The position numbers were made by a program, and so were the translations under genes. Of a DNA stretch of 64,000 bases, positions 7,618 to 35,961 are shown in pieces. This DNA is from the human T2T-CHM13v2.0 reference genome, Homo sapiens. The stretch lies in NCBI RefSeq assembly GCF_009914755.1, contig NC_060928.1. One strand, given 5' to 3'. The notes under the pieces are model-generated. The model did not search any database and had not been told where the DNA came from. It saw only the letters and a list, made by a program, of their open reading frames with translations. How positions within the stretch are numbered: the first letter of the stretch is position 1; every line of letters starts with the position of its first letter.

Positions 7618-10600
7618 GCTCTTCTTGTTGAAATGATCCCTTTACCATTATGTAATGGCCTTCTTTGTCTCTTTTGATCTTTGTTGGTTTAAAGTCTGTT
7701 TTATCAGAGACTAGGATTGCAACCCCTGCCTTTTTTTGTTTTCCAAGACAAGTATCCTAAATATATAGGGACCCAATACAGGAGCACCCAGATTCATAAA
7801 GCAAGTCCTGAGTGACCTACAAAGAGACTTAGACTCCCACACATTAATAATGGGAGACTTTAACACCCCACTGTCAACACTAGACAGATCAACGAGACAG
7901 AAAGTCAACAAGGATACCCAGGAATTGAACTCAGCTCTGCACCAAGCAGACCTAATAGACATCTACAGAACTCTCCACCCCAAATCAACAGAATATACAT
8001 TTTTTCCAGCACCACACCACACCTATTCCAAAATTGACCACATAGTTGGAAGTAAAGCTCTCCCCAGCAAATGTAAAAGAACAGAAATTATAACAAACTA
8101 TCTCTCAGACCACAGTGCAATCAAACTAGAACTCAGGATTAAGAATCTCACTCAAAACTGCTCAACTACATGAAAACTGAACAACCTGCTCCTGAATGAC
8201 TACTGGGTACATAATGAAATGAAGGCAGAAATAAAGATGTTCTTTGAAACCAATGAGAACAAAGACACAACATACCAGAATCTCTGGGACACATTCAAAG
8301 CAGTGTGTAGAGGGAAATTTATAGCACTAAATGCCCACAAGAGAAAGCAGGAAAGATCAAAAATTGGCAACCTAACATCACAATTAAAAGAACTAGAGAA
8401 GCAAGAGCAAACACATTCAAAAAATAGCAGGAGGCAAGAAATAACTAAAATCAGAGCAGAACTGAAGGACATAGAAACACAAAAAACCCTTCAAAAAATT
8501 AATGAATCCAGGAGCTGGTTTTTTGAAAGGATCAACAAAATTGATAGACCACTAGCAAGACTAATAAAGAAAAAAAGAGAGAAGAATCAAATAGATGCAA
8601 TAAAAAATGATAAAGGGGATATCACCACCGATTCCACACAAATACAAACTACCATCAGAGAATACTACAAACACCTCTACGCAAATTAGAAAATCTATAA
8701 GAAATGGATAAATTCCTCGACACATACACCCTCCCAAGACTAAATGAGGAAGAAGTTGACTCTCTGAATAGACCAATAACAGGCTCTGAAATTGTAGCAA
8801 TAATCAATAGCTTACCAACCAAAAAGAGTCCAGGACCAGATGGATTCACAGCCGAATTCTACTGGAGGTACAAGGAGGAACTGGTACCATTCCTTCTGAA
8901 ACTATTCCAATCAATAGAAAAAGAGGGAATCCTCCGTAACTCATTTTATGAGGCCAGCATCATCCTGATACCAAAGCCGGGCAGAGACACAACCCAAAAA
9001 GAGAATTTTAGACCAATATCCTTGATGAACATTGATGCAAAAATCCTCAATAAAATACTGGCAAACAAAATCCAGCAGCACATCAAAAAGCTTATCCACC
9101 ATGATCAAGTGGGCTTCATCCCTGGGATGCAAGGCTGGTTCAATATATGCAAATCAATAAATGTAATCCAGCATATAAACAGAACCAAAGACAAAAACCA
9201 CAGGATTATCTCAATAGATGCAGAAAAGGCTTTTGACAAAATTCAAGAACACTTCATGCTAAAAACTCTCAATAAATTAGGTATTCATGGGACGTATCTC
9301 AAAATAATAAGAGCTATCGATGACAAATCCACAGCCAATATCCTACTGAATGCGCAAAAACTGGAAGCATTCCCTTTGAAAACTGGCACAAGACAGGGAT
9401 GCCCTCTCTCACCACTCCTATTCAACATAGTGTTGGAAGTTCTGGCCAGAGTAATTAGGCAGGACAAGGAAATAAAGGGTATTCAATTAGGAAAAGAGGA
9501 AGTCAAATTGTCCCTGTTTGCAGATGACATGACTGTATATCTAGAAAACCCCATTGTCTCAGCCCAAAATCTCCTTAAGCTGATAAGCAACTTCAGCAAA
9601 GTCTCAGGATACAAAATGAATGTACAAAAATCACAAGCATTCTTATACACCAATAACAGGCAAACAGAGAGCCAAATCATGAGTGAACTCCCATTCACAA
9701 TTGCTTCAAAGAGAATAAAATACCTAGGAATCCAACTGACAAGGGACATGAAGGACCTCTTCAAGGAGAACTACAAACCACTGCTCAAGGAAATAAAAGA
9801 GGATACAAAGAAATGGAAGAACATTCCATGCTCATGGGTAGGAAGAATCAATATCGTGAAAATGGCCATACTGCCCAACGTAATTTATAGATTCAATGCC
9901 ATCCCCATCAAGCTACCAATGACTTTCTTCACACAATTGGAAAAAACTACTTTAAAGTTCATATGGAACCAAAAAAGAGCCCACATCGCCAAGTGAATCC
10001 TAAGCCAAAAGAACAAAGCTGGAGGCATCACACTACCTGACTTCAAACTATACTACAAGGCTACAGTAACGAAAACAGCATGGTACTGGTACCAAAACAG
10101 AGATATAGATCAACGGAACAGAACAGAGTCCTCAGAAATAACACTGCATATCTACAACTATCTGATCTTTGACAAACCTGAGAAAAATAAGCAATGGGGA
10201 AAGGATTTCCTAGTTAAAAATGGTGCTGGGAAAACTGGCTAACCATATGTAGAAAGCTGAAACTGGATCCCTTCCTTACACCTTATACAAAAATCAATTC
10301 AAGATGGATTAAAGACTTAAATGTTAGACCTAAAACCATAAAAACCCTAGAAGAAAACCTAGGCATTACCATTCAGGACATAGGCATGGGCAAGGACTTC
10401 ATGTCTAAAACACCAAAAGCAATGGCACCAAAAGCCAAAATTGACAAATGGGATCTCATTAAACTAAAGAGCTTCTGCGCAGCAAAAGAAACTACCATCA
10501 GAGTGAACAGGCAACCTACAAAATGGGAGAAAATTTTCGCAACCTACTCATCTGACAAAGGGCTAATATCCAGAATCTACAATGAACTCAAACAAATTTA

Positions 10601-11460
10601 CAAGAAAAAAAACAAACAACTCCATCAAAAAGTGGGCGAAGGATATGAACAGACACTTATCAAAAGAAGACATTTATGCAGCCAAAAAACACATGAAAAA
10701 ATGCTCATCATCACTGGCTATCAGACAAATGCAAATCAAAACCACAATGAGATACCATTTCACACCAGTTAGAATGGCAATCATTAAAAAGTCAGGAAAC
10801 AACAGGTGCTGGACAGGATGTGGAGAAATAGGAACACTTTTACACTGTTGGTGGGACTTTAAACTAGTTCAAACATTGTGGAAGTCAGTGTGGCGATTCC
10901 TCAGGGATCTAGAACTAGAAATACCATTTGACCCAGCCATCCCATTACTGGGTATATACCCAAAGGACTATAAATCATGCTGCTATGAAGACACATGCAC
11001 ACGTATGTTTATTGCGGCATTATTCACAATAGCAAAGACTTGGAACCAACCGAAATGTCCAACAATGACAGACTGGATTAAGAAAATGTGGCACATATAC
11101 ACCATGGAATGGTGTGCAGCCATAAAAAATGATGAGTTCGTGTCCTTTGTAGGGACATGGATGAAATTGGAAATCATCATTCTCAGTAAACTATCGCAAG
11201 AAGAAAAAACTAAACACCGCATATTCTCACTCATAGGTGGGAATTGAACAATGAGAACACATGGACACAGGAAGGGGAACATCACACTCTGGGGACTGTT
11301 GTGAGGTGGGGGGAGGGGGGAGGGATGGCATTGGGAGATATACCTAATGAGAGATGACTAGTTAGTGGGTGCAGTGCACCAGCATGGCACATGTATACAT
11401 ATGTAACCTACCTGCACATTGTGCACATGTACCCTAAAACTTAAAGTATAATAAAAAAAA
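7618..11460 (+). mobile_element. 5'-truncated L1PA2/PA3-class LINE-1 with 5' inversion (L1-A)
   Basis: Inverted ORF2 segment 7616-7745, sense ORF2 from 7753, 3' UTR and poly-A to 11460; TSD ttcttaaaata at 7607-7617 and 11461-11471. Confidence 0.97.
7753..11247 (+). pseudogene. Disrupted L1 ORF2 (EN C-terminal part, RT, C-terminal Cys-rich domain) of L1-A
   Basis: ORF fragments 7850-8173, 8219-8689, 8704-9996 (RT with FADD motif), 10386-10772, 10582-11247 ending IFSLIGGN; separated by stops and frameshifts. Confidence 0.95.
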
Positions 11461-35100: not shown

Positions 35101-35961
35101 ATGGGCAAGGACTTCATGTCTAAAACACCAAAAGCAATGGCACCAAAAGACAAAATTGACAAATGGGATCTCATTAAACTAAAGAGCTTCTGCACAGCAA
35201 AAGAAACTACCATCAGAGTGAACAGGCAACCTACACAATGGGAGAAAATTTTCGCAACCTACTCATCTGACAAAGGGCTAATATCCAGAATCTACAACGA
35301 ACTCAAACAAATTTACGAGAAAAAAACAAACAACCCCATCAAAAAGTGGGCAAAGGACATGAACAGACACTTCTCAAAAGAAGACATTTATGCAGCCAAA
35401 AAACACATGAAAAAATGCTCACCATCACTGGCCATCAGAGTAATGCAAATCAAAACCACAATGAGATACCATCTCACACCAGTTAGAATGGCAATCATTA
35501 AAAAGTCAGGACACAACAGGTGCTGGAGAGGATGTGGAGAAATAGGAACACTTTTACACTGTTGATGGGACTGTAAACTAGTTCATCCATTGTGGAAGTC
35601 AGTGTGGCGATTCCTCAGGGATCTAGAACTAGAAATACCATTTGACCCAGTCATCCCATTACTGGGTATATACCCAAAGGACTATAAATCATGCTGCTAT
35701 AAAGACACATGCACACATATGTTTATTGCGGCACTATTCACAATAGCAAAGACTTGGAACCAACCAAAATGTCCAACAATGATAGACTGGATTAAGAAAA
35801 TGTGGCACATATACACCCTGGAATGGTGTGCAGCCATAAAAAATGATGAATTCATGTCCTTTGTAGGGACATGGATGAAATTGGAAGTCATCATTCTCAG
35901 TAAACTATCACAAGAACAAAAAACCAAACACCACATATTCTCACTCATAGGTGGGAATTGA
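32135..35961 (+). pseudogene. Disrupted L1 ORF2 (endonuclease / reverse transcriptase) of L1-C
   Basis: MTGSNSHITILTLN start; frameshift near 32715; stops at 33412, 34708 and 35563; catalytic motif altered to FADH. Confidence 0.96.

What the first reader, a model, noticed from the sequence alone, without database searches (positions are those of the whole stretch)
8698..35828. Two independently inserted L1s 24.7 kb apart share about 12 private changes, including two identical stop codons
Seen in sequence (L1-A/L1-C positions): GAA>TAA stop 8698/33412; AAC-CAG>AAT-GAG 8745/33459; CCT>CGT 8936/33650; CGA>AAA 9067/33781; CAA>GAA 9247/33961; AAC>AAG 9810/34524; TCA>TGA stop 9995/34709; ACC>ACG 10071/34785; CCC>TCC 10129/34843; ACA>CCA 10428/35143; CTA>CTC 10457/35172; TAC-TAT>TGG-TGT 11111/35825. 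Ancestral states come from recalled L1PA consensus, supported in-window by L1-B (gaatactatgcagcc, 16412) and the old L1 (aaccaggaag, 53845). None is simple CpG decay. The two elements have different TSDs and still differ at subfamily-type sites interleaved in the same tract (caaggaa/caatgaa at 9785/34500, aatcaattc/aattaattc near 10293/35007, and the 3' UTRs). A cis-mobilised L1 should not transmit ORF2 stops, and one long conversion would erase the interleaved differences. Inference: repeated short-patch non-allelic gene conversion between neighbouring L1s, or a non-autonomous stop-bearing L1 lineage or donor whose variants spread among copies.
Basis: partly seen in the sequence, partly recalled or inferred. 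Interest (0 to 1): 0.85.

Follow-up and report, generated by a model that had tools for sequence, protein, structure and literature searches.

The report
Gene conversion between two neighbouring L1s
Two dead L1 retrotransposon copies that landed separately 24.7 kb apart on human chromosome 4 later copied short patches of sequence into each other, two stop codons included, which is an ordinary repair-driven process and not a new kind of L1 lineage.

Summary
L1-A (7618-11460, 5'-truncated and inverted) and full-length L1-C (30013-36189) have different target-site duplications and non-homologous flanks. They share 13 non-CpG rare sites in 10 clusters (A 8698-11114), including both ORF2 stops. Chance predicts 0.6.

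Whole-genome searches with seven variant words gave 287 hits. No L1 other than these two carries more than one variant. This excludes a dispersed stop-bearing lineage and a subfamily consensus.

A and C belong to different sub-lineages: they differ at 14 of 37 non-CpG diagnostic sites, and these sites are interleaved with the shared ones. This argues against parent-daughter descent.

The best reading (0.85) is non-allelic gene conversion in at least 5-7 short patches, mostly old. A simulation using the published human rate and tract length predicts 8-10 shared sites and 4-5 events.

Two other neighbouring, independently inserted L1 pairs (chr8, chr9) show the same pattern. Same-variant neighbour pairs number 13 against 0.66 expected by chance.

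Verdict: a clear instance of a known process. Interest is low to moderate. Ape orthologues and long reads could not be checked.

The parts
7607..7617 (+). 5' target-site duplication of L1-A (TTCTTAAAATA)
   Evidence: The same 11-mer is found at 7607 and 11461, with sequence shown.
7618..7745 (-). Inverted 5' piece of L1-A (a twin-priming-like inversion). It corresponds to L1-C positions 2318-2447.
   Evidence: BLAST gives 97.7% over 130 nt in reverse orientation. It contains no shared-rare site.
7750..11460 (+). Forward part of L1-A (ORF2 from about codon 105 to the 3' UTR and poly-A). It is of a later sub-lineage type.
   Evidence: 95.7% identity to L1-C over 3716 nt.
11461..11471 (+). 3' target-site duplication of L1-A
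29998..30012 (+). 5' target-site duplication of L1-C (15 nt)
30013..36189 (+). Full-length L1-C of an earlier sub-lineage type. ORF2 ATG is at 32135 and both ORFs are broken.
36190..36204 (+). 3' target-site duplication of L1-C (one mismatch to the 5' copy)
8698..11114 (+). Exchange zone in L1-A: 13 non-CpG shared-rare sites in 10 clusters (8698; 8745-6; 8936; 9067; 9247; 9995; 10071; 10428; 10457; 11111/2/4). Retained lineage differences are interleaved with them (8880, 9789, 10295, 10435, 10644, 10708, 11020).
33412..35828 (+). Matching exchange zone in L1-C (33412; 33459-60; 33650; 33781; 33961; 34709; 34785; 35143; 35172; 35825/6/8)
8698..8700 (+). Shared TAA stop in L1-A (ORF2 about codon 426). 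The partner in L1-C is at 33412-33414.
   Evidence: Local translation. The 18-mer occurs 44 times in the genome against 11,055 for the G allele.
9994..9996 (+). Shared TGA stop in L1-A (ORF2 about codon 858). The partner in L1-C is at 34708-34710.
   Evidence: The 18-mer occurs 42 times in the genome.
8996..9197 (+). Longest A/C identical run (202 nt), holding shared site 9067. It is a candidate for the most recent converted tract. The partner in L1-C is about 33710-33911.
   Evidence: Permutation gives P=0.021 for a run this long among 162 differences in 3840 nt.

Best explanation
L1-A and L1-C are two separate retrotransposition events from successive stages of one L1PA lineage. The label L1PA3-like is recalled, not tested. 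They sit 24.7 kb apart in the same orientation.

After both were resident and decaying, homologous repair used one copy as the template for the other on several occasions. This is non-allelic (ectopic) gene conversion with tracts of tens to a few hundred bases. Each tract carried across whatever private decay mutations lay in it, including a TAA and a TGA that had arisen in place in one dead copy. Sites outside the tracts kept each copy's own lineage alleles.

Most exchanges were old, because both copies have since accumulated private changes around the shared sites.

Shown: independent insertion, excess sharing, privacy of the haplotype, different sub-lineages and the interleaved pattern. Inferred: the repair mechanism, the number of events, their direction and their timing.
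For: (1) Independent origin. The two copies have different TSDs, different 5' structure and non-homologous flanks.

(2) Excess sharing. There are 14 shared-rare sites (13 non-CpG) against 0.59 expected. A-C shares 12 where the next of 105 young-copy pairs shares 4.

(3) Private haplotype. Seven variant words gave 44, 7, 23, 42, 68, 78 and 25 genome hits. All lists were complete. Only A and C hold more than one, and each holds all seven.

(4) Not common descent. A and C differ at 14 of 37 scorable non-CpG diagnostic sites, interleaved with the shared sites. Both 3' haplotypes are real types: among 40 sampled chr1 copies, 25 carry A's and 6 carry C's. Overall A-C identity (95.8%) is no higher than the identity of A or C to unrelated young copies, which reaches 95.9-96.1%.

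(5) Quantity fits the known process. The Harpak et al. abstract gives 2.5e-7 per nucleotide per generation and 250-bp tracts. A simulation with those values predicts 8.3-10.1 shared derived sites, 4-5 events and P(>=14 sites) of 0.20-0.28.

(6) The same pattern occurs in other neighbours. A chr8 pair (13 kb apart) and a chr9 pair (47 kb apart) have different truncations and homology confined to the L1 body. They share 6 of 2012 nt and 7 of 3292 nt rare sites. Fourteen cross (non-neighbour) comparisons share 0-3. These pairs also differ at 14 of 22 and 7 of 31 diagnostic sites.

(7) Genome-wide, 13 other neighbour pairs within 100 kb share the same variant, against 0.66 expected. Different-variant pairs number 2 against 2.83 expected.

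(8) The longest identical run (202 nt, P=0.021) contains a shared site.
Against: There is no direct before-and-after evidence. Ape orthologues and other human haplotypes could not be examined.

Shared sites lie in only slightly longer identity runs than random positions (mean 73.6 against 54.6 nt, P=0.09). Tract signatures are therefore weak and the exchanges must be old.

At least 5-7 separate patches are needed. One case requires two shared sites (10428, 10457) to flank a retained difference (10435) within 30 nt.

Direction could not be determined for any patch. My attempt to show donor lineage alleles travelling with a patch failed, because C's 3' haplotype is an ordinary type.

The shared set is unusually rich in C>G (6 of 14, against 9 of 129 private changes, P=0.0009). 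Plain conversion does not predict this, and it was not seen in the chr8 and chr9 pairs.

Of the 13 other same-variant neighbour pairs, I examined four. One (chr2) is two 65%-identical old L1s and says nothing. One (chr7) is an old family in which subfamily structure may explain the sharing. The other nine could be segmental duplications.

The reference panel has 29 copies, all from chr1.
Confidence: 0.85

Rival explanations
1. Descent by retrotransposition. L1-A is a trans-mobilised daughter of the already stop-bearing full-length L1-C, or both are copies of a lost stop-bearing source. The shared changes were inherited through RNA.
For: L1-C is full length and could be transcribed. All shared sites lie in the part both copies possess. 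Private changes have accumulated around the shared sites at close to the average density, as expected if sharing dates from A's birth.
Against: A and C differ at 14 of 37 non-CpG diagnostic sites, interleaved with the shared sites, and each carries a genuine sub-lineage haplotype. A is no closer to C overall than to unrelated copies. No other genome copy holds more than one of the seven variants, so there is no family. No preference for landing beside the parent is known for L1 (established knowledge, not tested). The chr8 and chr9 neighbour pairs show the same sharing between clearly different sub-lineages.
Confidence: 0.05
2. Chimeric birth. The cDNA of L1-A was assembled by repeated template switching between an L1-C transcript and the RNA of a younger helper L1. 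Alternatively, L1 cDNA rather than the chromosomal copy served as the conversion donor.
For: This would explain a mosaic of C-derived private variants and younger lineage alleles fixed at one time. cDNA-mediated conversion is described for yeast Ty and Tf2 elements (passage in PMC6598467).
Against: It needs about 10-12 switches within 2.4 kb. It gives no reason for the two elements to be neighbours, yet neighbourhood is the recurrent feature. The 202-nt identical run (P=0.021) hints at an event later than the rest.
Confidence: 0.04
3. Assembly or polishing cross-talk between the two copies created the shared alleles.
For: None from my calls.
Against: The copies differ at 162 of 3840 aligned positions, interleaved with the shared sites at a spacing of about 24 nt. 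Reads spanning even part of an element would therefore place uniquely. Cross-talk would have to hit only rare-variant sites.
Confidence: 0.02
4. Parallel mutation at hypermutable sites, or alleles of a described subfamily.
Against: The remaining 13 sites are non-CpG. Each variant word is rare genome-wide (7-78 hits; the stop-1 word 44 against 11,055 for its common allele) and the words never co-occur elsewhere. The expected number of coincidences is 0.59.
Confidence: 0.01

Closest known systems
Non-allelic gene conversion between neighbouring Alu elements (Aleshin and Zhi 2010, as cited in passages of PMC6598467 and PMC8230782)
   Same: Independently inserted repeat copies on one chromosome share non-diagnostic mutations. 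The effect depends on proximity and identity. Copies of different subfamilies can exchange patches.
   Different: Those passages give a range of under about 10 kb for 300-nt Alus. Here the units are kb-long L1s at 24.7 kb, and 13 and 47 kb in the two other pairs. At least 5-7 patches fall within one pair.
Non-allelic gene conversion in human gene duplicates (Harpak, Lan, Gao and Pritchard, bioRxiv 10.1101/135152; abstract read)
   Same: The rate (2.5e-7 per nucleotide per generation), the 250-bp mean tract and the slowing with divergence reproduce the amount of sharing seen here.
   Different: Those were gene duplicates born identical. These are two separate insertions born about 0.4% different at lineage sites, and they are neutral junk.
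Non-allelic gene conversion among human LTR elements (Trombetta et al. 2016, PMC4921805; search listing and start of abstract only)
   Same: Ectopic conversion among dispersed retroelement sequences in the human genome.
   Different: A different element class. I did not read the paper beyond the listing.
L1 gene conversion reported earlier (Burton et al. [quoted passage not shown]
   Same: The idea that resident L1 copies are overwritten by other L1 sequence.
   Different: Not read. From recall it concerns replacement of a mouse L1 at one site, not a patchwork between neighbours.
Trans-mobilised defective L1 and other non-autonomous lineages (recalled; no call)
   Same: Stop codons are shared by more than one copy.
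   Different: Such a lineage should leave dispersed copies that share the lesions. None exists here.

Membership tests
Non-allelic (ectopic) gene conversion between dispersed repeats | The two sequences are non-allelic and of independent origin, not a segmental duplication | tested here: met
   Different TSDs, different 5' truncation and inversion, and flanks without homology.
Non-allelic (ectopic) gene conversion between dispersed repeats | Shared derived variants exceed chance and are not explained by subfamily ancestry | tested here: met
   13-14 sites against 0.59 expected. The haplotype is found nowhere else among 287 hits of seven words.
Non-allelic (ectopic) gene conversion between dispersed repeats | Mosaic pattern: shared patches bounded by retained differences between the partners | tested here: met
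   Shared and diagnostic-difference sites alternate, giving at least 5-7 patches.
Non-allelic (ectopic) gene conversion between dispersed repeats | Converted tracts appear as runs of identity longer than expected | tested here: inconclusive
   The longest run is 202 nt (P=0.021), but the mean run around shared sites is 73.6 against 54.6 nt (P=0.09).
Non-allelic (ectopic) gene conversion between dispersed repeats | Pre-conversion state seen in an outgroup or another haplotype, giving direction and date | not testable with these tools
   No ape or second human assembly was available.
Non-allelic (ectopic) gene conversion between dispersed repeats | GC-biased transmission (weak-to-strong changes favoured) | tested here: inconclusive
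   Shared sites pooled over three pairs give 12 weak-to-strong against 6 strong-to-weak. Private sites give 44 against 52. P=0.13.
Non-autonomous, stop-bearing L1 sub-lineage spread by trans-mobilisation | Several dispersed copies share the disabling lesions and other lineage markers | tested here: not met
   The stop-1 word has 44 hits and the stop-2 word 42. Only A and C have both, and no other copy holds any two of the seven variants.
Parent-daughter L1 pair | Identical lineage-diagnostic alleles at birth, with only private decay differing | tested here: not met
   14 of 37 non-CpG diagnostic sites differ, and both haplotypes are common types.
L1PA3-type subfamily (name recalled) | Match to the curated subfamily consensus at its diagnostic positions | not tested
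'Earlier' and 'later' types are defined only against my panel.

The most novel reading that the evidence does not exclude
L1-to-L1 non-allelic gene conversion may be systematic in the human genome over tens of kilobases, further than the roughly 10 kb reported for Alus. It would run at about the rate measured for gene duplicates, so that roughly one in ten apparently private substitutions in clustered L1PA copies has been exchanged with a neighbour. That would bias L1 age estimates and source-lineage reconstruction. In this pair the transfer may also depend on mismatch type, because the shared set is rich in C>G and C:C or G:G mismatches are poorly recognised by mismatch repair.
Probability: 0.3. 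Interest if true: 0.45.

Novelty: new member of a known kind. Interest (0 to 1): 0.3.

Why it matters
This pair shows that shared 'private' mutations between repeat copies, even shared stop codons, need not mean shared descent. Studies that date L1 copies by divergence, or that trace source elements from shared variants, can be misled when copies lie within tens of kb of each other. In this pair about 8-10% of rare sites are exchanged. The pair and the chr8 and chr9 pairs also suggest that kb-long L1s exchange sequence at distances of 13-47 kb. A genome-wide survey could measure this. None of it changes the understanding of how L1 works.

Tried and rejected
(a) I asked whether L1-C is a recombinant carrying A's younger alleles (11201, 11223) next to the shared cluster at 11111-4, which would have given a direction. 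This was rejected. Among 40 sampled chr1 copies with those alleles, 6 (plus one near-variant) have C's full 3' haplotype, so it is an ordinary intermediate type. That sample was enriched by me for copies with a decayed CpG (31 of 40).

(b) L1-A carries the older allele at 9888 although 9789 and 9888 are in perfect association in 13 panel copies. I could not test this in a larger sample.

(c) The identity-run test around shared sites gave only weak support (P=0.09).

(d) The C>G excess among shared sites (P=0.0009) did not replicate in the chr8 and chr9 pairs, where 1 of 11 non-ascertained shared sites is a C/G transversion. It remains unexplained.

(e) L1-B (15992-16781), only 4.6 kb from L1-A, shows no meaningful sharing. 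It shares one site with A, in the poly-A tail, and one with C, over about 790 nt.

(f) The chr2 same-variant pair (L004, L005) is two 65%-identical old L1s and is uninformative.

(h) Literature. Searches found conversion among Alus, LTRs and gene duplicates, plus one old L1 title in a reference list. They found no genome-wide L1 neighbour survey in this library. That is not proof that none exists, since most subscription journals are not held.

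Full report
**What is there**

The window is human chr4. L1-A occupies 7618-11460. It has an 11-nt target-site duplication (TSD) at 7607-7617 and 11461-11471. Its 5' end is a 128-nt inverted piece, followed by a forward part from ORF2 to the poly-A tail. L1-C is a full-length element at 30013-36189, flanked by a 15-nt TSD with one mismatch. Both lie on the + strand, 24.7 kb apart. Their 5-kb flanks share only three short repeat matches of 62-156 nt. They are therefore two separate insertions and not a duplicated segment.

**Checking the observation**

No subfamily consensus was available and I built none. Instead I fetched 40 randomly placed chr1 copies that carry the common allele of the stop-1 word. 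I kept the 29 with at least 89% identity and at least 2.5 kb of overlap, and dropped 11. I then counted alleles site by site.

A and C are 95.8% identical over 3848 nt. That is no closer than either is to unrelated young copies, which reach 95.9-96.1%.

At 14 sites they share an allele carried by 0-2 of the 29 panel copies. Site 8215 is a CpG transition, which leaves 13 robust sites in 10 clusters between 8698 and 11114. The other two, 9810 and 10129, are carried by 4 and 5 of the 29 copies and are recurrent.

Both stops lie in the local ORF2 frame in both copies.

With 90 and 75 rare sites over 3840 nt, chance predicts 0.59 identical coincidences. Among 105 pairs formed from the 13 young panel copies plus A and C, A-C shares 12 sites and the next pair shares 4. 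In the full set of 465 pairs, three pairs exceed A-C, but all three consist of old-family copies that are under-represented in the panel. That caveat is why the whole-genome test below matters.

**Is it a lineage or a subfamily state?**

I searched the whole assembly for seven variant words. The hit counts were:
- stop 1: 44 (its common allele has 11,055)
- TGGTGT: 7
- AATGAG: 23
- stop 2: 42
- CGT: 68
- ACG: 78
- CCA: 25

. All seven lists were printed in full. Intersecting them shows that only A and C hold more than one variant, and each holds all seven.

Exact words miss copies that have a nearby mutation. Even so, a third carrier of the haplotype would almost certainly have matched at least two words. 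There is therefore no dispersed stop-bearing family, and these states are not a subfamily consensus.

**Is it descent?**

The panel shows clear stepwise lineage structure. A carries later-type alleles and C carries earlier-type alleles. They differ at 14 of 37 scorable non-CpG diagnostic sites.

Within the shared zone the order alternates between shared-rare sites (S) and retained diagnostic differences (D):

S8698, S8745, D8880, S8936, S9067, S9247, D9789, S9995, S10071, D10295, S10428, D10435, S10457, D10644, D10708, D11020, S11111, D11333-65.

Both 3' haplotypes are ordinary types. Among 40 further chr1 copies, 25 carry A's haplotype and 6 carry C's. This argues against a parent-daughter or sibling relation. 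At least 5-7 separate shared patches are needed.

**Mechanism**

The explanation that fits is non-allelic gene conversion between the two resident copies. Private decay mutations, the two stops among them, arose in one copy and were copied into the other in short tracts.

Differences between A and C are interleaved with the shared sites at nearly the average spacing. The mean identity run around shared sites is 73.6 nt against 54.6 nt for random positions (P=0.09). Most exchanges are therefore old. The longest identical run (202 nt, P=0.021) contains shared site 9067 and may mark a later tract.

The amount of sharing is what the published parameters predict. The abstract of Harpak et al. gives 2.5e-7 per nucleotide per generation, 250-bp tracts, and slowing as copies diverge. 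I simulated a 3840-nt pair with about 2% private change per copy and 0.13-0.16 conversions per site. That range assumes about 13 million years at 20-25 years per generation, and the age is recalled, not measured. The simulation gives 8.3-10.1 shared derived sites, 4-5 events, and P(at least 14 sites) of 0.20-0.28.

**Context from other loci**

The same word lists contain 13 other pairs of hits within 100 kb that share the same variant. Chance predicts 0.66. Pairs with different variants number 2, against 2.83 expected.

I could fetch four of the 13:
- The chr8 pair (13 kb apart, inverted) and the chr9 pair (47 kb apart, inverted) have different truncations, and their homology is confined to the L1 body. 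They share 6 and 7 rare sites. Fourteen cross comparisons between non-neighbours share 0-3. These pairs also differ at 14 of 22 and 7 of 31 diagnostic sites.
- The chr7 pair is an older family, so its 6 shared sites are ambiguous.
- The chr2 pair is two unrelated old L1s.
Some may be segmental duplications.

**Rivals**

- Trans-mobilised daughter or lost common source (0.05). This is contradicted by the diagnostic differences and by the lack of any family.
- Chimeric cDNA formed by many template switches, or cDNA-mediated conversion (0.04). This does not explain why the two elements are neighbours.
- Assembly cross-talk (0.02). This is unlikely with 162 interleaved differences, but read data were not available.
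- Parallel mutation (0.01).

**Unexplained**

Six of the 14 shared sites are C>G on the + strand, against 9 of 129 private changes (P=0.0009). Three of the 10 robust clusters are multi-nucleotide changes. The C>G excess did not recur in the chr8 and chr9 pairs.

**Comparison with what is known**

Conversion between neighbouring Alus, LTR elements and gene duplicates is documented (passages in PMC6598467 and PMC8230782; listing of PMC4921805). An L1 case from 1991 appears in a reference list. My four searches found no genome-wide survey of L1 neighbours in this library.

**Verdict**

This is a clear new instance of a known process. Interest is 0.3.

Noticed in passing
G000 pairs listed (for example C8:69452702/69465765, C9:139156714/139204176, C4:184752464/184777933, C5:169077071/169128706, C23:99989596/100026046): Thirteen other pairs of L1 copies within 100 kb share the same single rare variant word. 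Chance predicts 0.66. Pairs with different variants number 2 against 2.83 expected. Eight of the 13 pairs are in inverted orientation.
   Followed up: partly
L051/L052 (chr8) and L053/L054 (chr9): These are independently truncated neighbouring L1s of different sub-lineages, 13 and 47 kb apart. They share 6 and 7 rare sites, against 0-3 in non-neighbour comparisons. About 13-20% of each copy's rare sites are shared, similar to the A-C pair.
   Followed up: partly
window 8746, 8936, 9247, 9995, 10071, 11112 (and partners in L1-C): Six of the 14 shared sites are C>G on the sense strand (P=0.0009 against private changes). Three clusters are multi-nucleotide changes (8745-6, 9067-8, 11111-4). The C>G excess was not seen in the chr8 and chr9 pairs. 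I have no explanation.
   Followed up: partly
window 11052 / 35766 / L1-B near 16350: At one site all 25 panel copies have C, L1-A has G, and L1-C and the nearby L1-B fragment both have A. This could be a shared C>G that later decayed as a new CpG in C, or coincidence. Site 9748/34462 is also changed in both copies, to different bases.
   Followed up: no
window 8686 (L1-A) against 33397-33400 (L1-C): L1-A has a private 4-nt deletion 12 nt upstream of the shared TAA, so its ORF2 frame is broken independently just before the shared stop.
   Followed up: no
window 31526-31547: L1-C has an 11-nt tandem duplication (gtacctgaatg twice) in the ORF1 region. It is one of several private lesions in the part that L1-A lacks.
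   Followed up: no
window 15992-16781: L1-B is a short 3' fragment with its own inverted 5' piece, about 92-94% identical to L1-C and only 4.6 kb from L1-A. It shows no meaningful sharing of rare sites with A or C.
   Followed up: yes
window 53650-63128: There are old, highly diverged L1 pieces (66-75% identical to L1-C), mostly on the minus strand (55161-60724). They are unrelated to the finding.
   Followed up: no
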